Assembly: GCF_038025025.1 (NCBI RefSeq)
Contig: NW_027117344.1
Location: 62,001-126,000, forward strand
Reading direction: 5' to 3'
Source: Phyllosticta citribraziliensis
Taxonomy: Eukaryota
DNA length: 64,000 nt
Below are positions 11,001 to 20,758 of this stretch, piece by piece (positions within the stretch are counted from its first letter, which is position 1; every line of letters begins with the position of its first letter). A model generated the notes under the pieces. That model saw only the letters and a list, made by a program, of their open reading frames with translations, searched no databases and was not told where the DNA came from. The position numbers and the translations under genes were made by a program.

Positions 11001-12493
11001 ATGGCCGCCCGTCAAGAAAAGCCTGCCGAGGCCACTATCGCTCCGTCTGAAGTCCCATCACTTCCTTCGAATCACTCCAACAATGCCGATCCGCCTGAAT
11101 CAGTTGTCGAGCCAGTTCAAGAACCACCCAATGGAGGCTACGGTTGGATCTGCTGCATAGCCACTTTCTGGATAAACGCACATACGTGGGGAATCAACAG
11201 CGTCAGTTTTCATCACTTTCGCCCAACACTGCTAACTCTCTTCAGAGTTATGGCATCTTCCTCGCCCACTACCTGAGGCAAAATACTTTTCCTGGGGCCA
11301 CGCGCCTCGCCTTTGCCCTCGTCGGCGGCCTATCCATCTCGCAGGCTTTGTTCGTCTCTCCCCTCGCCACCGCGACCACCCGGCGCTTTGGCACGCGCGT
11401 GACGCTTCTTGTTGGCGTCTTCTTCGAGACCTTGGCTCTGATTTGCGCCTCGTTTGCGAGTCAGATATGGCACCTATTCTTGACTCAAGGGGTGTGCTTT
11501 GGCTGGGGCATGGGATTTCTCTTCGTGGGCAGCGTCGGCGTCGTGCCGCAGTGGTTCACTACGCGACGCAGCTTCGCCAACGGCATTGCAGCATCGGGAT
11601 CAGGGGTGGGCGGGCTGACGTATTCGCTGGCGACCAACACCATGATTGAGCGCATCGGGCTGGGCTGGGCGTTTCGCGTCTTGGGCATCTGCGCGTTCTC
11701 GGTCAACACCGTCTGCGCGCTGGTCATCAAGGACCGCAACAAGCACATTGGCAGCTCGCAGCTGGCCTTTGACTACCGCCTGTTCAAGCGGCCCGAGTTT
11801 CTGCTGCTCCTGGCTTTTGGCTTTCTCAGCATGCTCGGCTACATTGTGCTCCTCTTCTCCCTCCCCAACTACGCCACGTCAATCGGTCTCTCCGCGCACC
11901 AGGGCTCCGTCGTCGGCGCCATGCTCAACCTGGGACAGGCGCTGGGCCGCTCGCCCATCGGATACTTTAGTGATGTTATTGGCCGTCTCAACATGGCTGC
12001 CAGTATGACGCTACTCGTCGCCGTCTTTTCGTTTGCCATTTGGATCCCGGCAAAGAGCTACGGCGTGCTACTTCTTTTCGCGCTTCTCTGTGGCACCGTC
12101 GCCGGTACGTATTGGGCCGTCGTCGCCCCCGTCACCACCGAAGCTGTCGGCCTGGCCACACTGCCTGCTGCCCTCTCCATCACCTGGCTTGTACTCGTCC
12201 TGCCCACCACCTTTTCCGAAGCCATCGCTCTACAAATCACCGCTTCCAACGGCGGCAATTACCTCGGCGCTCAGCTCTTTACCGCATTCATGTACCTCGG
12301 TGCAGCCGCCGTGATGTGGATGTTGCGCGCGTGGAAGATTGGTCAACTGGAACGAACTGCTACAGCCGGGGACAACCGGATCGAAGCGGTAGACCCTGTG
12401 ACTGAGCAGCCAAAAAGTCTGGAGAAGAATGGCAAAGTGCTGAAGCCTGGGCGGAGCTTCGTCGAGAGGTTGTATGCGCGAGCAAGAGTGTAG
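11001..12493 (+). CDS. MFS monocarboxylate-porter family transporter (Mch-like); intron 11202-11245
   Basis: PPNGGYGW, spliced TWGINS|SYGIFL, PQWFTTRRSFANGIAASGSG, multiple TM segments. Confidence 0.9.
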
Positions 12494-13970
12494 CGATCTC
12501 TGCATCGACAGGCGTTGGTATGTGGGTACGGCATAGCATTTGCACATATTGCATCTCGGTAAATAAAATACAGCGTGTTTATACACAGCACAAAGGACCT
12601 ACTTCATTCAAACTCCGAATTGCATCTCTTCAAATGCTAGTCAGCGAAAAGCGTTCGAGAAATCACATCCTACTCAAAAAAGTCTCCTCCGAAACATCCT
12701 CACCATCCCCCTGTCCTACACTCATCCTGGTGCTTATGTTGAGCACCAATGAGATTCATTGTTGATCAACATCAAGTGGTCGTCAAGAACAAAGGGAGGA
12801 CAGCAAGTCCGAGAGCGACGCGCGACAGGCTCTCCCGAAAGAAAAAAAGAAAAAAGTAAAACAGAAGTGCGTCATGTGGGACCACGGCGCCGCAAAGACC
12901 AACCAGTTTCTGTGGTGAGTTGATCTTCGTCCCCCTTTCAAAGCTGCGTGTTGAGTGATGAGTGAGAGAACAAGCAGAATGAGCGGAGCTTTTATACCCT
13001 CCCTACCCTTGACTGGGAGCAGCTGGCCACGATCACAAGCTGCTAGGCACCTGCTTCTTCCAGGCAGCAGACCATGTGCTAGCTCAGCCTGACTGACGCG
13101 GCGCTGGAGCCCCGGCATGTGTGAAAAAGGAGTCAGCTGCTGACGGATGCAGAGGTATAAAAGCTTTCCCTTGCCGGTGCTCTCAATCTTTGTACCGCAC
13201 CATGCGAGTTCTGGGTCCACAAGGAAGAAATCCAAATGACCACTGACTGTGCGCTTGCCTGTCGCCCCGGAGATTCCGGACCAAAGTTGTGCTACTTGGG
13301 TTGAGAAGCCATTCCCGACGAGAAAGACATGCAAGAAAGATTCTTCGGTCGTGCACTGCAACGAGACGCAATGGTGGTGGTTATGATTGAGTGTGTAATG
13401 ACAGCGAGCGCCACTTAAAGTTGAGAAAGACTGGAGACATTTCACTGCGCGAGAAATGAATAGTGGAAGAGGATTCTGGCCCGGGGCAGCCAAAAAAGTC
13501 GTACACAACCCGAGATATGACACAAGAGTGTCCGAATTAGCACCCCGTTCTTTTCTCTTGTAACACGGGTGGACTGTTGCCATGACCCTTGCAATGCAAA
13601 CAGTGGGAATGTATTTATAATTCATCGATAGCCTTAGCCGTAGCCGTAGCGGCCGGGCGGCGGAGTTCCTTTCACGAGCTCAGGGGCATCAGGTTCTGGC
13701 GGATACTACATCACACGTCACGCTCAACTGGCCGCAGCCCATGGCGCGATTTCACGGTGCAAGAATGCAAGACTCAGCATCTCGTACCACTGCCATCGTC
13801 CTTCAAGCAGCGACCAAGTCCACCCAATTCTCCCCTCATCCGCCCGTCCCCATCGCGCCACCCCTTACTCACTACAACCACGGAACAAGGCCTCGACACG
13901 GACACCCCGCTACCACTCAAAAGCCCCGCCATCAAAATAAAGGCAAAAAGGAAAAGGGCAAAAGGAGCTC

Positions 13971-14053
13971 CAGATCGGCCAGGACTTGAACCTGGGACTT
14001 GCCGTGGATATGATGTTTAACCATGACATGCGTTACCACTACGCCACCGATCC
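13971..14053 (-). tRNA. Atypical tRNA-like gene (isotype undetermined; possibly pseudo-tRNA)
   Basis: Acceptor GGATCGG/CCGATCT, D-arm GCGT-AGTGGTA-ACGC (A box), T-arm CCAGG-TTCAAGT-CCTGG (B box), downstream T-tracts; anticodon arm non-canonical. Confidence 0.75.
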
Positions 14054-15485
14054 ATAAACGTTTTTGTGGTGCGCTGGATAGTGGGGTAGGGGTTGCGACG
14101 GATTATATACTGATTTTTGGCTTCGCTGCTTTGTGGGGTCTGCCTTTTGTCTGCACACAGAAGAAGCCAATATATTTTGCTGCGGATTCGCTGCGGAAAT
14201 TTTCGAGAAACTTTCTCGCCCTGTGACACTTGATACACAAAACGCTCTGAAGCATGTGCAAGTTGCCGTCAGACTACCGTGCGAGACTCGTCGTCTCGTG
14301 AGCGCGCCTGGATGCGCCCGCGGAGTATAAATTGCGTCGTCTTTTTAGCAGCGAGGAAGTACGGTACGACTCCCTCCAAGCATATCGACAACAGCAACTC
14401 AAATATGAGCAATTGACTCTTTGCTGGCATGGTGAATTGCAGAATCTCACTTCATGTTCTTCTTTGCGCTGTTGGGATCTTATTTCTACAGTCTCCGGCA
14501 AAAGGCGCGTAAATCTAAAGATCCTTCAACAGCGATGATGCTGAATCGCACCACCAATCGTCCACGATGAGACCGATTTTCGCCCAAAGACAGCAAAAAT
14601 GCTGCGACGCTCTTGGTCTCAGGGGCTTTTGGCGCGAGAGTAAATCGAAAGAAGAAAACCAAAGACAGACAAGTCACTTCTTCTCTTTCCAGATTGTTGC
14701 ACACCACAAGTCCGTCGTCTTCTCCCTATGATAAGGCCGCAGACTCGCGGGAGGGATGTCGCTTGGAAGAGTGAGAAATGGTCTGGGTTTATATACCCCT
14801 GAGATCTTGAAACTCCGCATGTGCCGACATGTCAGCGAGCTTCTGATAGATCACAAGCACAACGCTCGGAGCTATATGTCCCATGACGCGGTCCTAGCTC
14901 TAGTAGCTCTTGTACTTCTCTTCCGTTATAAAAGCAGGTCCGTCACTTCCACTCAACTCATCAACAACGCAATTAAATCGGCAGAAATACCCAAAAAAGG
15001 ACTAGATGACTGTCTCTCTTCCTTTAGGGCATGCTTCAATCGTCTTTCCTTTTCACTTTGTCCTGCGGTGGTTCCGTGACGCTCTCCAAGACCGACTGTT
15101 TTTGATTTGTCAAACTTGGCTTTTGCTTTCCTTTGAACGCTCACCATCATCATTAAATGACGGAGTCAATACCCAATTGCTTAAGATGAAGTCCGCCGCC
15201 GTCATCATTCAAGGGGGTTCAGTGCTTGGTTTATTCTGGATCTCATGCCACAGCGTCCAGCGGCTATGTAGGAAACCCAACAAAAAACAAACAGTTTTGG
15301 AGGTGTCTATGTCCTTTATTCTTGAGGATGGGATGCACCTCACTGATGATGGAACGGGGAAAGCTGAATCGAAGGAGAGAGACGGTTTTATACCTCGCGG
15401 AGCCGTCAAAAAAGCCCGGGCCAAGCCTCAAGAATCAGCTGCCAGCTCAGTAGAGCGAAAACGGAAGCATTTGAGTGTGCGCTAC

Positions 15486-15487
15486 GG

Positions 15488-15523
<36 letters not shown>

Positions 15524-15524
15524 C
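15486..15524 (+). repeat. (GGCA)n tetranucleotide microsatellite inside one bidirectional promoter module
   Basis: About 9-10 tandem GGCA units read directly. Confidence 0.9.
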
Positions 15525-18500
15525 GTCTTTCTTGGTATATAAAATGGTCGCTTCTGCCCTCCCCAGGGCTCATCATTGAAGATGCACCTTTCGTCAAGAG
15601 CGACATTCCTCGGCAACTGATACTGCTGTCCCGATCGAGCTCGAGAAAATTACTTTGTTTCTGTCCGCGTCCCCTGAGAGACTTTGAGTCCGCAGCTAGT
15701 GAATTTGATCTGGGCGACCGAAATCAAATTGCTCTCCATCTTTGACTTATGGTGCTGAGTAAAGTCAGGGGTAGATTGCAATGATCCGCAATATTATCAC
15801 TTTTCCAATGCGTTCCTTAAAAGTTGAAACGCTGGCAACGGCGGCGAAACAGTGATCGAATCATCTGGGATTTGTCTATGTGAACAACTCAGCCAAACAG
15901 TTGACCAGGTTTTGAAGAGGTGACTTTTCGCACTCAAAGCGAACTTGTTTGGCAATGAGTGAGCAACCCCAGAGTTGAGAGCGCTTTTATACGCGGACGA
16001 AGTAGGTCACAAGCAAGAGAGCTGCAAGAGGAATCAGATGTCAGGAGCCAAAAGGGGCAGGGTAGGTCACACCGACTTGTCTCTGACGCCGAAGCCGCAG
16101 CTCGCTGCGCTTGTGATCGTGGCCCTAGGGGGTATAAAACCCGGTCCTTTCGCTCTGTCAAAGGAGTCGTCAGACAAGCTCCAGCGCATCTTCAGCCGCA
16201 ACAAATGGTAGCTGAAAGACTGTGCTTGTTTCCGATGTCAAAGAGCATAGCACTTTGTTTGGCTGTTTCCGGCTGCGGAAATGACGGACTTTGGCCTTCT
16301 TTTGAAGAGCATAGGATTTTCAGGCGGCCTAGATTTCCTGTTTATCATTATTCCTTCTTGGAGGTCTTCATCATCAGAACAAAGAGCCTGTGACCTCAAT
16401 GGCTCAACAAAGAGAAAAGAAACAACCCCACAAGAAAGCAAGCCAACCACCCACCCCAGCAAACCAAAAGAAAAAAGACAAAGTACGCTGAAAATCAAGC
16501 CAAGCACTCCACCCAGTAGGGTCCTCTCGGACATCTCTTTCAGCAAGGTCGCGGACTGCACTGCGAAGGAAATGCCAGAGCTCAGAAGAATGCGCGTCTT
16601 ATACTCCGCCGCTGCACCTGCTCACGTGCCAAACAATGCCTCTCGACAAATGAGGGGAATTCTCGAGCACCAAGTCCCAGGAAGCACGTGCGTCGCTGTG
16701 CACATGGCCCCCTTACACGTCAACATGTCGAGTGCACTGGCGATATCGCTCGCCCACGGATGCACGACGCACTACAAAAGCCGCCGCGCCGCCCACAGTT
16801 CTGTCGTTAGAAAGCTTCTTCTGACAAGCGGAGAAGAACCTTCCAGCCTACCACTCTACTTGTGCGTTTGCGGTGAGTGGGTGGCACAGTGTGGTGATGG
16901 TTGGGTGTTGGGTTGCGGGGTTTTGGCGAGATGTGGGTAGGATGTAGGAATGGTGGTGAGGGATGAGAAATGTTGATGGGGATGAGGAATATGGTGTTGT
17001 GATGGTGAGGGATGGAAGTGCGGAGAAATGTAGAAGCGTTGTGTTGTCAGTAAGCGGCGGATTCAGGGGTACCCGGTGGACCGAGCGACAGAGAGGCTTC
17101 CCAGTACTTTATCTCGTTCGACCCAAGCACCAGAGTCTCATCTTCTTTTGTTGACAGCCATGGCCCATAAAGCGCAAGAACAGCGAGCGAGAAGCGCGCT
17201 CTTTATACCCCCACCTCCGCCTTTGCCGCCGCCTCCGGCGTCACTGACCTCGCCAGCCTCGGCGCACATGAGTTCCACTGCACGCCCGCATCTACCCAGC
17301 GCGCTTGTGACAGCTCTCTAGTTCTAGGAGTATAAAACCGTCACTCGACCCTCGCTTTTGACTCCTACACACCACCGAGTCCGCAGCAAGCAAACGCAGC
17401 AAGACGAAGGACCACTGCTTACTGTTGCGATGCGTTTTTTGCGCAATGAATGTTACTTGTGGCGTCTCTGCGTGGGACATGAGGACATGGCTGCGTTTGC
17501 ATCTTAAGAGGTGATGGAGATGTTGTGTATGGTGCTGCGGTATGTCGGCGTCGCGTGATGGCGAGGAAAAGGGACGAGAATTCCGTTCAGGGGTAAGTGA
17601 TTCCAGAGAGAAGTATTTCTCCGCAACAAATTGTCCGCAGCTCGACAACGAAGAAGAAAAATAATAGAAAGATGATGATGCGATGCAACGACATGGCATA
17701 GCGATGTAAATCAACCAGCTTTTAAGTCGGTTCAGCGAGCTCTCAGGCACAACGTACGGACAAAAACAACAAGAACGAAGCGAAGCAAAGCAAAGTCAGT
17801 CGTTTACTTCGCCGAAGGTCTCCCCCACCAGTGTAATGGAGACAACACTTCAGAGCCTGCAGGATTGCAGCTCGCTTGTCCACCACAATCGCTGGAGGAA
17901 AGAGAGAGATTTTATACCCTCGCAACGGAACCACATGCTAAAAAGCTCTGACCACCAGCAAGCCAGCACCACCTGCTTGTAGCCCAGGCTTGTGACTCGA
18001 ATGCTGCACAGCCACGGCAGGCAACATCTAGATTCTAGACAGCAAGCTCGTGACGTCTGACAACTGACCCCATCAGCATGTGGCTGGCCCCAGCTTCTGC
18101 CCATGCTTCTCCCGCTCTCACTCCCTAGGGTATAAAACCTCCGCTCTCCCTCCCCTTTCACAGCGCGACAAGCAGGTGGAGGCGAGCTGAGCAGCCCTCA
18201 GATCTTCCAATCGAACTTGCCGCTCCATCTGTCACCATGTCACTTTCTGCCGGAACGGATTTCTCAGTTTCAACACACTTTTCCGCTCGTTTGTCCGCTC
18301 CGTCAGGGGCCGCGTAGAGCAGAGGAGAAGACGTGTTATCCCAAGCAGTTGTGAATGAGAGCGGCAGAGTGAAGTAATGCAGCGTCGCAGCGCCACGGCA
18401 CCACGCTGCAAGTCCGCGTATCTGGGAAGCGCGAGACTGCCAATGGGGGAGTTGAGATACGCCGTGGCGCGCTCCAAACAGTGGACGAGGAATGCGACCA

Positions 18501-19692
18501 CGCGGCACAGCGCACAAGTGGCCCAACGGCATAGCGGCGGTGCAGGCGTCTTGCTTTGCTCTGCGGAGGAGTGGGATGAGGAGGAAGAAGGAGGAGGGGA
18601 AAGGTGCGAGAGGCGCGGGTTTTATACCGTACCTCTCTCTGCTCTGTCAAACCACATGACCGACATTACTGCCAGCCAGCACCGCCAACCACTCCAACCC
18701 ACTCCACTCCACTCCACTCCGCCCCGACGCTCTCCGACTCTCCGACCAAAAAAAGACAAGAACCAGGCCCACCCCACATGTTCCCGGCCGGCGGCCGGCT
18801 AGCTAGATAGGTTGGTCAATGTAGTGTTGAATCAGGTACCGTACACGCCGGGTTAGCCAGCGAAACAGACGACAGGCGCTAACCGCAAGAGGCAATATCG
18901 CGGCGAAGGGGAACGACGAAGCCGAACCGAAGCGAACGCCAGGAAAGCGAATCAAGGCAAATGCAATGCAAGTCGGCGAATCATCGCAAATGCCGCGGCT
19001 ATTATGTGCGCGTACGCATGTACTGCTACAAGCCAGACAGACAGGGGGGCCGGAGACTCCAGGATGAAGCTTAGCAAGAGTGCGAGAAGGAAAGAGAAAA
19101 GGAAACACGTAAGTTAGACAAGGTGTGTATGTATAGATAGAGGTATGCATGTCATGCAGCAAGAGTCGTATATGTACAGCTCTAGAGTCTATGATGCAGA
19201 CGGTTTCTAGGTGGATAGGTAGGTGAGGAGAAGGGGCCGAGGAAAGATGAGAAAGCCAACGCAGGCAGCCGGAGAGAGAGAAAGCGTCCATCCATGCCGC
19301 GCGCATTCGACCAACAGGGCAGGGGGTCGATCTTCAGACACAAGGAGATGACCGCGACCCTTAGTTTGATCCCCTGCGCGCTCGGCGACGAGATGCGGGT
19401 GCTCAGGTAATGCAAGTCGGAAGCTGTCCAGGCAGTCGAGGGGAGGTAGGAAGGTAGGAAAGCGGTCTGCCAACCGCACGTCGCACACGGGGTGAGCGTC
19501 GGTCAGCCCAGCAGGAAAGCCTTCATGCGCCCTCATCTCCGTGCCGTGCGGCGCCCCCGAAAAGCATGCCAGCCGCACGGCAGCCGTTGCTTTTTCGTGT
19601 GCAACGCCTCGTCGCCCCCCAAGAATAGCTCTCGACGGCCCGTGCTGGACGGCAGAAGAAGTGGGCAGATGCAAATACGGGCCGCACGCGCT

Positions 19693-20758
19693 CTACAGTT
19701 CCTTTTTCGTGGCGGAGCCGTTGAGCTGGGAGCGCTGCTCGCGCCGCACGACGAGCGGCATGGTGAAGAAGTTGGGCCAGTGCAGCTCGTAGTCGTCCTG
19801 CTTGTCGTTCAGGCAGTGTCTGAGCCAGATGCCCCAGACAATGTAAAAGTAGGCGCCGGTGCCCGTCATGAGGTGCCTAGCAAAGTTTCGTGTCAGCACG
19901 GCATGGGAAAAAGAAGCAAAGCCGCCAGCAAGCTGTTATTGGACGAGATTACTCACCACCAACCATGGCCTTCGAGAAGGAGGCCCCACGGCAGACCAAT
20001 GTCTCTGCGCCACCGCCGCAGGTTGCCGCAGAACTCGTTGTCTAGGGTCCAGATGGCGAAGCCGCCCAGAAAGATGCCCAACCCACAAGCAACCATTTTC
20101 CACATTGTGTGGAGGATGTGGAGATCGCGCCTGTCGACGCGCAGCTTCTCGGAGCTGTCGTCCGGCTGCTCCCTGGCCTTGAGCGTCGGCCGCAGGCGCA
20201 CCTCCATGACGTACATGCTCCGGAAGAGGACAACGGCGGTCAACAAAGCGTACATGTTTTGGTGAAAGGCCGGGTCTTGGAGGTAGTGGTAGTAGCCGGT
20301 GATGAAGGCGGCGAGGGCGACGAGGAAGAGGCCGAGCACCACGGCGTAGCGGCGCGACCTGCCGTAGGAAAAGGTGGCGTAAAACATGAGGCAGGTGGTG
20401 TAGATCATGGACAGCTCGTCGACCAGCTGCATGGGGTACTTGAGGGTTGCGTGGAAGAGGAACGAGCCGGTGCCGACCAACAGGTAGCCGGCAAAAGTAA
20501 CGAGGAAGATGCGGTCATGGTCGTTGGCCAGGCAGTTGGCGATGCCCTTGGCGGCCAGGTACATGAACAGGACGTTGGTCAGGGTGTTGACAATCTCGGC
20601 GCTGTAGATGGTGGCGTAGTAATCCTGCAGAGGTGAGCGGTGGGCGGGGATTGGGGCATTGAGCATACCTCTTCGCACCAATTGAGGGTCGAGGTGACGG
20701 GAGACCAGTAGCCGTCACCAGCAGGTGGGTAGGGCACGGAAGGGAGCCATTCGGGCAT
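19693..20758 (-). CDS. Alkaline (phyto)ceramidase, Ypc1/Ydc1 family; 3 exons
   Basis: Exon 1 MPEWLP..GYWSPVTSTLNWCEE; GSFLFHATL, QLVDELSM, LLEGHGW|WHLMTG (CREST-family His motifs). Confidence 0.92.

What the first reader, a model, noticed from the sequence alone, without database searches (positions are those of the whole stretch)
13025..18053. Shared cis-motif TCACRAGC confined to the bidirectional promoter modules
Seen: TCAC(A/G)AGC or its reverse complement at 13033, 13672, 14851, 16007, 16109, 17303, 17988 and 18046, plus a near match at 14294. All lie in the divergent gaps; I saw none in the cassettes. About 0.35 copies are expected in 5.7 kb under uniform base composition (4 x 5700 / 65536). 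A 16-mer GGCCACGATCACAAGC (13025-13040) recurs as an exact reverse complement at 16109-16124. Inference: one transcription factor co-ordinates the whole array, and the modules descend from a common ancestral unit.
Basis: partly seen in the sequence, partly recalled or inferred. Interest (0 to 1): 0.8.

Follow-up and report, generated by a model that had tools for sequence, protein, structure and literature searches.

The report
Shared motif in fungal TATA-promoter array
A short DNA word is truly shared by a row of back-to-back promoters in an ascomycete fungus; these promoters point toward each other across unrelated, non-coding 450-base segments, an arrangement I could not find described and whose purpose is still unknown.

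Summary
TCACRAGC occurs 12 times in the window. Eight copies lie at the stated coordinates, all in 1,785 bp of divergent-promoter gap. None lies in 4,156 bp of cassette, and 4 lie in the other 57.5 kb. No 8-mer reached the same spread in 1,000 shuffles. Information is confined to the 8 bases. Seven of 8 copies point at the nearest TATA box, 15-77 nt away.

The setting is a 6-kb non-coding array between an MFS transporter gene and a ceramidase gene. It has about 17 near-consensus GGTATAAAA boxes, each followed by a CT-rich tract. They form divergent pairs every ~600 bp and so converge on unique ~450-bp segments. RNA-derived contigs cover parts of the array, and some end 44-53 nt after TATA boxes.

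The segments show no mutual homology, coding signal, Pfam match, RNA structure or snoRNA features.

My best reading is an activator site serving Pol II promoters that drive convergent non-coding transcripts. Production of dsRNA is inferred, not shown. "One factor for the whole array" is unproven, since 2 of 8 gaps lack the motif. "Common ancestral unit" rests only on the periodicity. No genome, stranded RNA, small-RNA or close-relative data were available.

The parts
12560..18628 (.). Whole array: about 10 periods of ~600 bp. It is non-coding and lies between the MFS gene (stop at 12493, +) and the 3' end of the ceramidase mRNA (~18956, -).
13033..13040 (+). TCACAAGC, gap A. It lies 36 nt from the - TATA at 12996 and is oriented toward it. 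It is part of the 16-mer at 13025-13040.
13672..13679 (+). TCACGAGC, gap B, 52 nt from the - TATA at 13619.
14294..14301 (-). Near match TCACGAGA, 24 nt upstream of the + TATA at 14326.
14851..14858 (+). TCACAAGC, gap C, 55 nt from the - TATA at 14795.
16007..16014 (+). TCACAAGC, gap E, 15 nt from the - TATA at 15991.
16109..16116 (-). TCACAAGC, gap E, 16 nt upstream of the + TATA at 16133. It is part of the inverted 16-mer at 16109-16124.
17303..17310 (-). TCACAAGC, gap G, 20 nt upstream of the + TATA at 17331.
17988..17995 (-). TCACAAGC, gap H. It is oriented toward the + TATA at 18131 (135 nt away) but lies nearer the - TATA at 17916 (71 nt). This is the one copy that points away from its nearest TATA.
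18046..18053 (-). TCACGAGC, gap H, 77 nt upstream of the + TATA at 18131.
12990..12998 (-). GGTATAAAA box, leftward promoter of gap A. RNA contigs end at 12948 (X1) and 12949 (X2), 48 nt downstream.
13154..13162 (+). GGTATAAAA box, rightward promoter of gap A. An X1 contig starts at 13209, 53 nt after the first T.
13613..13619 (-). TATAAAT box, with a weaker sequence context.
14103..14109 (-). TATATAA, 55 nt upstream of the tRNA 5' end and in phase with the array.
13970..14054 (-). tRNA gene (ARAGORN: Thr, anticodon GGT, 85 nt; Rfam tRNA 45.7 bits) inside the long gap B.
14326..14332 (+). TATAAAT box.
14789..14797 (-). GGTATATAA box.
14925..14933 (+). GTTATAAAA box.
15386..15394 (-). GGTATAAAA box.
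15534..15542 (+). GGTATATAA(AA) box.
15985..15993 (-). CGTATAAAA box.
16131..16139 (+). GGTATAAAA box. An X1 contig starts at 16177, directly preceded by adapter letters, 44 nt after the first T.
16598..16606 (-). Weak box GTATAAGAC (gap F).
16773..16780 (+). Weak box TACAAAAG (gap F).
17201..17209 (-). GGTATAAAG box.
17329..17337 (+). AGTATAAAA box.
17910..17918 (-). GGTATAAAA box.
18129..18137 (+). GGTATAAAA box.
18620..18628 (-). GGTATAAAA box. This is the last promoter of the array and has no divergent partner.
13163..13612 (.). Cassette C1 (unique sequence). X1 contig 13209-13898 and X2 contig 13113-13700 lie on it.
14333..14788 (.). Cassette C2 (unique sequence).
14934..15385 (.). Cassette C3 (unique sequence).
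15545..15984 (.). Cassette C4 (unique sequence).
16140..17200 (.). Cassettes C5 and C6 with the weak gap F between them. X2 shows a GC..AG joint 16437/16505, and a contig at 16505-17086 starts at the acceptor.
17338..17909 (.). Cassette C7 (unique sequence, 572 bp).
18138..18619 (.). Cassette C8 (unique sequence). X2 contig 17522-18708 spans C7, gap H and C8.
12560..12989 (.). Cassette C0, which overlaps the region downstream of the MFS stop codon.

Best explanation
(R)TCACRAGC is the binding site of a sequence-specific activator in a lineage-restricted array of strong RNA polymerase II promoters.

Architecture. Each module is a nucleosome-sized gap, 124-215 bp from TATA to TATA, with one 707-bp exception that holds a tRNA gene. 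Each gap is bounded by two outward-facing near-consensus boxes, (G)GGTATAAAA(S)C. Each box is followed by a ~35-nt pyrimidine-rich tract, and transcription starts about 44-53 nt after the box. The octamer lies 15-77 nt upstream of one of the two boxes and reads toward it. Because a gap is so short, one bound factor could serve both core promoters.

Consequence. Modules recur about every 600 bp, so each unique ~450-bp segment is entered from both ends by converging transcription. The products are non-coding.

Likely outcome (inferred). Overlapping sense and antisense RNA is made. This could feed RNA silencing, or the two polymerases could attenuate each other.

What is shown: the motif statistics, the TATA/CT-tract anatomy, the absence of coding, homology and structure signals, and RNA-derived contigs whose ends fit TATA-directed starts.

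What is inferred: activator binding, Pol II, transcription of both strands of one segment, and any dsRNA or small RNA.
For: Motif. All 8 copies lie in the gaps, 0 in the cassettes and 4 in the other 57.5 kb. In 0 of 1,000 shuffles did any 8-mer occur in 5 or more gaps. Information is 1.7-1.8 bits at 7 of the 8 positions and about 0 in both flanks. Seven of 8 copies point to the nearest TATA.

Core promoters. Thirteen of the 14 window hits to GGTATAAAA (up to 1 mismatch) lie at 12990-18628; 3.2 are expected and 0 of 100 shuffles reach 14. They form 6 divergent pairs, against 0 such pairs in 770 kb of other ascomycete-like contigs. The consensus of 15 units is gGGGTATAAAA.C followed by a C/T-rich stretch. 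The pyrimidine fraction is 0.59-0.64 from 0 to +40. From recall, not a call, this is the TATA plus CT-box layout known from strongly expressed genes of filamentous fungi.

Transcription. The X1 and X2 contigs skip introns with GT..AG or CT..AC ends in the flanking genes, so they derive from RNA. They cover 11246-12948, 13209-13898 and 16177-19875 (X1), and 13113-13700, 16505-17086 and 17522-18708 (X2). Contig ends at 12948 (X1; 12949 in X2) and at 16177 abut adapter letters. These ends, and the contig start at 13209, lie 48, 44 and 53 nt downstream of TATA boxes pointing the right way.

Non-coding. The best 60-codon codon-usage score in the array is 10.6, against 38.7 and 41.4 for held-out exons. 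All 9 array ORFs tested have negative scores. None of 99 open frames of 45 aa or more reaches a Pfam cut-off. The two longest frames match only themselves in libraries of 5.8 and 1.8 billion proteins.

Functional analogue. A terminator-less convergent-promoter transgene silences its target in Fusarium oxysporum (PMC3733888, passages read).
Against: Two of 8 gaps (D and F) lack the motif, and about half of the core promoters have no copy on their own side.

The spacing to TATA varies five-fold (15-77 nt), and I could match the motif to no known factor.

The contigs are unstranded, so transcription of both strands of any one segment is not demonstrated. Contigs also run through gaps F, G and H, and one weak GC..AG joint crosses gap F. 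Some transcripts are therefore longer than one cassette, and gap F may not be a promoter.

There is a modest excess of long stop-free frames: the longest is 298 codons (P 0.004), and 5 frames reach 150 codons against 1.55 expected (P 0.012).

The first T-run falls 100-170 nt after TATA in 13 of 18 units. A plain long-transcript model does not explain this.

There is no small-RNA, stranded or comparative evidence. Everything comes from one genome.
Confidence: 0.5

Rival explanations
1. The units are short RNA polymerase III genes with purely upstream promoters: the octamer acting like a proximal element, plus a TATA box. Each would make a 57-128-nt RNA ending at a T-run. The embedded tRNA gene would be one unit of the same series.
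For: The first run of 4 or more T falls 100-170 nt after the TATA box in 13 of 18 units. Random anchors in the array give 0.23 (P 1.5e-5), or P 0.0005 after allowing for the choice of window. Nine of 18 units have a run of 5 or more T at offset 104-196.

The tRNA has a TATATAA 55 nt upstream of its 5' end and T-runs after its 3' end, and it is in phase with the array.

Neurospora milR-1 is transcribed by Pol III from TATA-like elements without A or B boxes and has poly-T stretches (PMC3547838, passages read).
Against: RNA-derived contigs run straight through the T-runs of units 13156+ and 16133+ and are 580-3,700 nt long. One joint looks spliced.

Many of the runs are only T4. The predicted short RNAs are not structured: z ranges from -2.4 to +1.25, mean -0.65. 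Rfam finds only the tRNA.

The TATA-to-start distance of 44-53 nt is longer than the ~30 nt I recall for Pol III TATA promoters (recalled, not from a call).
Confidence: 0.1
2. The cassettes hold young, orphan protein-coding genes for small proteins. The motif would be their shared regulatory element, as in co-regulated clusters of lineage-specific genes.
For: There is an excess of long stop-free frames. In 5 of 17 units the first ATG opens an ORF of 62-254 aa. One of these, at 16238-16534(-), reads like a two-helix membrane peptide. Frames of 280 and 219 aa are on record as predicted proteins of this contig.
Against: Codon-usage scores are negative for 9 of 9 array ORFs, with GC3 of 0.45-0.66. 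Of 10 control frames elsewhere in the window, 9 are positive, with GC3 of 0.59-0.90.

There is no homologue beyond self and no Pfam match in 99 frames.

The longest frames run across TATA boxes and gaps. There is no shared peptide feature and no CaaX ends.
Confidence: 0.1
3. The octamer and TATA cores are leftovers of a tandemly duplicated ~600-bp unit, or of gene conversion between units, and the octamer has no binding function of its own.
For: The TATA pairs recur at 558-640 bp for most steps (subtracting the coordinates). Four cassettes measure 453-469 bp from TATA to TATA. An exact 16-mer is shared by gaps A and E, and a 16-nt stretch is 88% identical between gaps C and E.
Against: There is no alignable similarity elsewhere between gaps or between cassettes. 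Mean z is 0.85 and 0.97, and only the A-E 16-mer stands out at z 6.8.

Information falls to zero right outside the 8 bases. This is the pattern of selection on a site, not of fading homology. There is no RIP-type mutation signature.
Confidence: 0.1
4. The array is a structural chromosome element, such as a small regional centromere, a replication origin or a chromatin boundary. Here bound TBP and promoter activity would matter, not the RNAs.
For: There is a 6.4-kb stretch without genes among housekeeping genes. GC falls to 0.485 at 14-16 kb, against 0.58-0.60 in the flanks. A tRNA gene is embedded. The segment sequences look unconstrained.
Against: Nothing specific points to this reading. I recall no known centromere, origin or boundary type with periodic divergent consensus TATA pairs (recalled, not from a call). 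RNA-derived contigs cover much of the array.
Confidence: 0.05

Closest known systems
Neurospora disiRNA loci (convergent transcription giving Dicer-independent small RNAs and dynamic DNA methylation; PMC3764098, seen only as search listing and abstract start)
   Same: An ascomycete locus in a gene-rich region where the trigger is transcription converging on one stretch of DNA.
   Different: Those loci are single overlapping gene or antisense pairs. They are not a periodic series of about 17 consensus TATA promoters around unrelated non-coding segments. Small RNAs and methylation are unknown here, and CpG observed/expected is 0.88, so there is no clear depletion.
Engineered convergent-promoter dsRNA constructs for fungal gene silencing (conP-Gus in Fusarium oxysporum; PMC3733888, passages read)
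   Same: Two strong promoters face each other across a few hundred bases without an inverted repeat, and both strands are transcribed.
   Different: This locus is natural and multi-unit. The inserts match no known target: no shared word of 16 nt or more with the other 57 kb of the window. Silencing is not shown.
Bidirectional Pol II promoters of yeasts that emit divergent non-coding transcripts (PMC4085477, seen only as search listing and highlights)
   Same: A nucleosome-sized gap carries two outward-facing initiation sites. Short T-rich signals downstream could limit the transcripts.
   Different: Here both sides carry near-consensus TATA boxes, neither side is a gene, and the modules are repeated about every 600 bp.
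Pol III-transcribed milR-1 of Neurospora (PMC3547838, passages read)
   Same: A non-coding RNA driven by TATA-like elements without A or B boxes, with poly-T nearby and a link to tRNA genes.
   Different: There is no hairpin precursor here. RNA contigs pass through the T-runs. There are many units, in convergent pairs.
C. elegans 21U-RNA clusters with an upstream motif for each unit (recalled, no call)
   Same: Many autonomous tiny transcription units of unrelated sequence sit on both strands, each with the same small upstream motif.
   Different: That system is in another kingdom and uses a different motif and a different machinery. Those clusters hold thousands of units with fixed motif spacing; this array has 17 units with TATA boxes and variable spacing.

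Membership tests
Transcription-factor binding site (upstream activating element) of Pol II promoters | Over-represented in promoter DNA relative to the neighbouring sequence and to background | tested here: met
   8 copies in 1,785 bp of gaps, 0 in 4,156 bp of cassettes and 4 in 57.5 kb. 0 of 1,000 shuffles match for any 8-mer. 0.057 per kb in 770 kb of outside contigs.
Transcription-factor binding site (upstream activating element) of Pol II promoters | Conservation confined to a short core, with position or orientation bias relative to the core promoter | tested here: met
   Information is 1.7-1.8 bits within the 8 bases and about 0 outside. Seven of 8 copies are oriented to the nearest TATA, P 0.035. 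The spacing varies from 15 to 77 nt.
Transcription-factor binding site (upstream activating element) of Pol II promoters | Bound by a protein; mutation changes promoter output; conserved in orthologous promoters | not testable with these tools
   No genome, no close relatives (the best ceramidase relative is 69% identical) and no binding data.
Fungal TATA/CT-tract Pol II core promoter | Consensus TATA box, a pyrimidine-rich tract, and a start site some tens of nt downstream | tested here: met
   TATA: 13 of the 14 window hits are in the array. Pyrimidine fraction is 0.59-0.64 at 0 to +40. RNA contig ends lie at +44, +48 and +53 for 3 of 17 units; the other units were not resolved.
Convergent-transcription dsRNA / small-RNA locus | Both strands of the same segment are transcribed and overlap | tested here: inconclusive
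   The promoters converge by sequence. The contigs carry no strand information.
Convergent-transcription dsRNA / small-RNA locus | Small RNAs of both polarities map to the segments, dependent on RNAi or related factors | not testable with these tools
   No small-RNA run was reachable.
Pol III genes with upstream TATA promoters | Transcript ends at the first T-run | tested here: not met
   T-runs are positioned non-randomly (13 of 18 units). However, contigs cross them at 13551 and at 16300/16317.
Tandem duplicates of one ancestral unit | Detectable sequence homology between the units | tested here: not met
   Best blastn E 0.21 and best tblastx E 0.033 among the 9 cassettes. For local alignments, 2 of 36 gap pairs and 2 of 36 cassette pairs have z above 3, and only the A-E 16-mer is strong.
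Tandem duplicates of one ancestral unit | Regular unit length | tested here: met
   Successive same-strand TATA boxes are mostly 558-640 bp apart. Four cassettes measure 453-469 bp (coordinates).
Box C/D snoRNA cluster | C and D boxes with a terminal stem; an Rfam match | tested here: not met
   My scan gave 1 hit in the array, which lies across a TATA box and gap A, and none in the cassettes. The best Rfam C/D hit scores 22.5 bits against a gathering score of 40. Complementarity to rRNA was not tested because no rRNA sequence was on hand.
Protein-coding genes | Codon bias like the genome's genes; homologues or domains | tested here: not met

The most novel reading that the evidence does not exclude
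The array is a natural, multi-unit dsRNA generator: a battery of convergent-promoter cassettes. Each cassette would express both strands of a different ~450-bp sequence, and the battery would be switched on together through the TCACRAGC (and CACRTG) sites. It would produce a defined set of small RNAs aimed at targets elsewhere, such as the fungus's own genes, mobile elements, viruses or a partner organism. That would be the natural counterpart of the dual-promoter RNAi vectors built in the laboratory.
Probability: 0.12. Interest if true: 0.85.

Novelty: new variant of a known kind. Interest (0 to 1): 0.55.

Why it matters
If the reading holds, this is a compact natural example of many strong, similarly built promoters deliberately aimed at each other over non-coding DNA. 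It offers a ready test bed for three questions: how a single upstream site drives a bidirectional TATA module, what happens when polymerases converge, and whether fungi keep dedicated loci that make double-stranded RNA. The short (124-215 bp), well-delimited bidirectional promoters could also serve as parts for fungal expression tools. If the array proves to be only a quirk of one lineage with unstable transcripts, it is a curiosity.

Tried and rejected
Whole genome: none is held for this window, so the motif could not be counted genome-wide.

Sequencing runs: no RNA holder was listed. Two runs were labelled 'RNA?' only as a guess. I treat their contigs as RNA-derived only because they skip introns of the flanking genes.

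Parts with little or no cover: 12949-13208 and 15944-16176 in X1, 14208-15943 in both runs, and 17087-21 in X2 (17087-17521).

Cassettes as snoRNA genes: rejected.
Cassettes as structured RNAs or hairpins: rejected. z ranges from -1.8 to +1.2 over 18 folds, and the short TSS-to-T-run RNAs have mean z -0.65.
Cassettes as paralogues of each other: rejected.
Cassettes as fragments of known protein genes, transposons or viruses: 0 of 99 frames reach a Pfam cut-off, and the three sub-threshold hits (E 0.008-0.02) fit chance.
Lipopeptide-pheromone-like small ORFs: none.
Cassettes as copies of other parts of the window: no shared word of 16 nt or more.
RIP or methylation-type decay: TpA/ApT is 0.62, (CpA+TpG)/(ApC+GpT) is 1.34 and CpG observed/expected is 0.88, like other intergenic DNA in the window.

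Synteny in relatives: 80 metagenome loci with ceramidase relatives (at most 69% identical) show no TATA array. They are too distant to say whether the array is conserved. A wider search of those records was not possible.

Earlier notes of this scan: nothing on this genome, this sequence or this kind of array.

Literature: five full-text searches found no description of such an array and no factor for the octamer. The octamer strings turned up only in primers and unrelated sites.

The second motif, CACATG, is enriched against cassettes and background. It does not survive the test over all 6-mers (P 0.33), so it is only a lead.

Full report
WHAT WAS CLAIMED AND WHETHER IT IS THERE

All of these are present. 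One search returns 12 copies in the window, eight of them at the stated places and strands. The near match is TCACGAGA on the minus strand at 14294-14301. The 16-mer pair is listed as I10.

The total for the window is not unusual: 12 copies against 6.28 +/- 2.74 in shuffles, and 5 of 100 shuffles reach 12. What is unusual is the placement.

THE SETTING: AN ARRAY OF DIVERGENT TATA PROMOTERS

- GGTATAAAA with up to one mismatch occurs 14 times in the window, and 13 of these lie between 12990 and 18628. Shuffles give 3.2 hits, and none of 100 reaches 14.
- The boxes come as outward-facing pairs at 12990/13154, 14789/14925, 15386/15534, 15985/16131, 17201/17329 and 17910/18129, plus a last single box at 18620.
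- Weaker boxes complete the series at 13613(-), 14326(+), 16598(-) and 16773(+).
- The first Ts of a pair are 124-215 bp apart. The exception is 707 bp, where a tRNA gene sits.
- Successive boxes on one strand are mostly 558-640 bp apart.
- Each segment between two modules is therefore flanked by boxes that point into it. Four of these segments measure 453-469 bp from box to box.
- The 15 clear units share the consensus gGGGTATAAAA.C, followed by about 35 nt rich in C and T. I recall this as the TATA plus CT-box layout of strongly expressed genes in filamentous fungi; that is recall, not a call.
- In 770 kb of ascomycete-like metagenome contigs fetched as a control there is no such divergent pair, against six in the window.

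The window is ascomycete. The ceramidase exon's nearest protein-atlas clusters are mostly Ascomycota, and the introns seen are 44-80 nt. The array lies among ordinary housekeeping genes: a GH31 glycosidase, a sugar transporter, a LIM protein, an MFS transporter, an alkaline ceramidase, a mitochondrial carrier, TRAPP subunits, a cyclin and others.

STATISTICS OF THE MOTIF

With gaps and cassettes delimited by the TATA boxes, all eight copies fall in 1,785 bp of gap. None falls in 4,156 bp of cassette, and four fall in the other 57.5 kb. The tests give Poisson P 1.3e-12, Fisher P 6.6e-5 against cassettes and 3e-10 against the rest.

Among all 8-mers, GCTTGTGA is the most widely shared, in 5 of 8 gaps. 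In 1,000 dinucleotide shuffles of the gaps no 8-mer reached 5 gaps; the maximum was 4. The corresponding tests at k=7 and k=6 give P 0.053 and 0.33.

The outside control has 0.057 copies per kb and never more than 3 in 5.1 kb.

When the sites are aligned, information is 1.7-1.8 bits at seven positions and 0.9 at the R position. It is about zero in the 14 nt on either side. That is how a selected binding site looks, and not how fading homology looks.

Read as GCTTGTGA, the word points to the nearest TATA box in 7 of 8 cases, or 8 of 9 with the near match (P 0.035 and 0.020). It lies 15, 16, 20, 24, 36, 52, 55 or 77 nt upstream of that box.

Gaps D and F carry no copy. D holds a (GGCA)n microsatellite, and F has the weak boxes and two CACGTG.

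WHAT THE SEGMENTS ARE NOT

- The nine cassettes do not resemble each other at the DNA or translated level: best blastn E is 0.21 and best tblastx E is 0.033. Local-alignment z-scores average 0.97.
- The gaps do not resemble each other either, apart from the A-E 16-mer (z 6.8).
- Codon-usage scoring trained on the window's long genes gives at most 10.6 for any 60-codon window of the array. Two exons left out of training give 38.7 and 41.4.
- All nine array ORFs tested have negative scores and GC3 near 0.5.
- None of 99 open frames of 45 aa or more reaches a Pfam cut-off.
- The two longest frames, 298 and 229 codons, find only themselves among 5.8 and 1.8 billion proteins.
- Rfam finds only the tRNA, and a box C/D scan finds nothing in the cassettes.
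- Neither strand of any cassette folds better than shuffles.
- There is no RIP-like or CpG-loss signature.
- No word of 16 nt or more is shared with the rest of the window.

One point speaks the other way. Long stop-free frames are somewhat too frequent: the longest is 298 codons (P 0.004), and five frames reach 150 codons against 1.55 expected (P 0.012).

RNA EVIDENCE

Two coded runs hold the stretch. Their records do not state RNA, but their contigs skip introns with GT..AG or CT..AC ends in the flanking genes. One contig joins array sequence 16177-19875 to a ceramidase exon across such a skip. I therefore take the contigs as RNA-derived.

The contigs cover 11246-12948, 13209-13898 and 16177-19875 in X1. 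In X2 they cover 11904-12949, 13113-13700, 16505-17086 and 17522-18708.

Three contig ends lie 48, 53 and 44 nt downstream of a TATA box that points in the matching direction: 12948/12949 (seen in both runs), 13209 and 16177. At 12948 and 16177 the contig runs directly into sequencing-adapter letters, which marks a sharp end of the RNA fragments. I recognise the adapter strings from memory.

Some contigs cross gaps F, G and H. A weak GC..AG joint (16437/16505, one X2 contig, 30 letters on the shorter side) crosses into a contig that begins exactly at the acceptor. So at least one plus-strand RNA probably runs from 16177 through the weak gap F to about 17086.

The contigs carry no strand information. 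Convergent transcription of the same segment therefore follows from the promoter layout and is not observed.

HOW IT MOST LIKELY WORKS

A sequence-specific activator binds (R)TCACRAGC just upstream of one TATA box of a nucleosome-sized bidirectional module. It helps load TBP on the very strong boxes on both sides. Pol II starts after the CT tract, about 45-50 nt downstream, and runs into a unique non-coding segment. There it meets transcription coming from the next module.

The expected result is either overlapping sense and antisense RNA, a substrate for silencing, or mutual attenuation. Convergent-promoter transgenes do silence targets in another ascomycete (PMC3733888, passages read).

I give 0.5 to the core of this reading: a cis-element of Pol II promoters that make non-coding RNA from convergent units. 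I give about 0.12 to the specific idea of a dedicated multi-cassette dsRNA generator.

RIVALS

(a) Pol III small-RNA genes. The first T-run lies 100-170 nt after the box in 13 of 18 units (P 1.5e-5, or 0.0005 after correcting for the choice of window). The tRNA has its own TATATAA 55 nt upstream, in phase with the array. Neurospora milR-1 is a precedent for TATA-driven Pol III non-coding genes (PMC3547838, passages read). Against this, contigs pass through the T-runs, many runs are only T4, and the predicted RNAs are unstructured.

(b) Orphan small-protein genes. The excess of long ORFs supports this. Codon usage, the lack of homologues and the frames crossing promoters speak against it.

(c) Relics of duplication or gene conversion. 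The period and the 16-mer support this. The sharp information profile and the absence of any other similarity speak against it.

(d) A structural chromosome element. This rests only on a gene-free GC dip and an embedded tRNA gene.

COMPARISON WITH WHAT IS KNOWN, AND NOVELTY

The parts are ordinary: a TATA box, a CT tract, an upstream site and a bidirectional promoter. The assembly is not. About 17 near-consensus TATA promoters sit in 6 kb in regularly spaced divergent pairs and converge on unrelated non-coding segments of nearly constant length.

The nearest described things are:
- Neurospora disiRNA loci (PMC3764098, listing and abstract start only)
- laboratory convergent-promoter constructs
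- yeast bidirectional non-coding promoters (PMC4085477, listing only)
- from recall, nematode 21U-RNA clusters

The array passes no membership test for any of them beyond the layout. Five literature searches and four look-ups in this scan's notes gave no description of such an array.

I rate it a new variant of a known kind. Interest is moderate (0.55) because the function is unproven and everything rests on one genome.

LIMITS

- No whole genome was available, and no close relatives (best 69% identity).
- The gap and cassette boundaries are mine.
- Supplementary files of the cited papers were not consulted.

Noticed in passing
window 12560-18630 (units listed): The first run of 4 or more T on the transcribed strand falls 100-170 nt after the TATA box in 13 of 18 units. 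Random anchors give 23% (P 1.5e-5, or 0.0005 after allowing for the choice of window). Nine units have a run of T5-T7 there. This could be an early terminator, a poly(A)-signal element for the opposing transcript, or a nucleosome barrier. It is unexplained.
   Followed up: partly
window 13970-14109: The tRNA gene (minus strand, 85 nt, probably with an intron; ARAGORN calls it Thr-GGT) has a TATATAA 55 nt upstream of its 5' end and three T-runs just after its 3' end. It sits in phase with the ~600-bp period, as if it occupied one unit of the array.
   Followed up: partly
window gaps A, B, C, F, G, H (sites): A second word, the E-box-like CACRTG, is enriched in the gaps: 10 copies, against 1 in the cassettes and 38 in the other 57.5 kb (Poisson P 5e-7). 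It occurs in 6 of 8 gaps, including gap F, which lacks the octamer. It does not pass the blind test over all 6-mers (P 0.33).
   Followed up: partly
window 12783-13679 (-), 16251-16940 (+), 15006-15542 (+): Stop-free frames of 298, 229 and 178 codons run across TATA boxes and gaps. The excess over shuffles is modest (P 0.004-0.02). The two tested have no homologues, and all three lack normal codon bias and Pfam matches.
   Followed up: yes
window 16438-16504: A possible 67-nt GC..AG intron in a plus-strand non-coding RNA. It is seen as one joint in one low-depth X2 contig, and another contig starts exactly at the acceptor (16505).
   Followed up: partly
window 15482-15528 and 18690-18722: Microsatellites sit inside promoter gaps: (GGCA)n in gap D, which lacks both shared motifs, and a CCACT-type repeat after the last TATA box.
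   Followed up: no
window 16860-17040: A strongly strand-skewed tract in cassette C6: G/T-rich on the plus strand and C/A-rich on the minus strand. Folding energy is -105 kcal/mol for the plus strand and -60 for the minus strand.
   Followed up: no
window 12494-18955: A 6.4-kb gene-free interval in an otherwise dense housekeeping region. GC dips to 0.485 at 14-16 kb, against 0.58-0.60 in the flanks.
   Followed up: partly
window 14002-14037 (tables 3 and 4): High-depth RNA contigs differ from the window at several tRNA positions. They are most likely other copies of the same tRNA family elsewhere in the genome.
   Followed up: no
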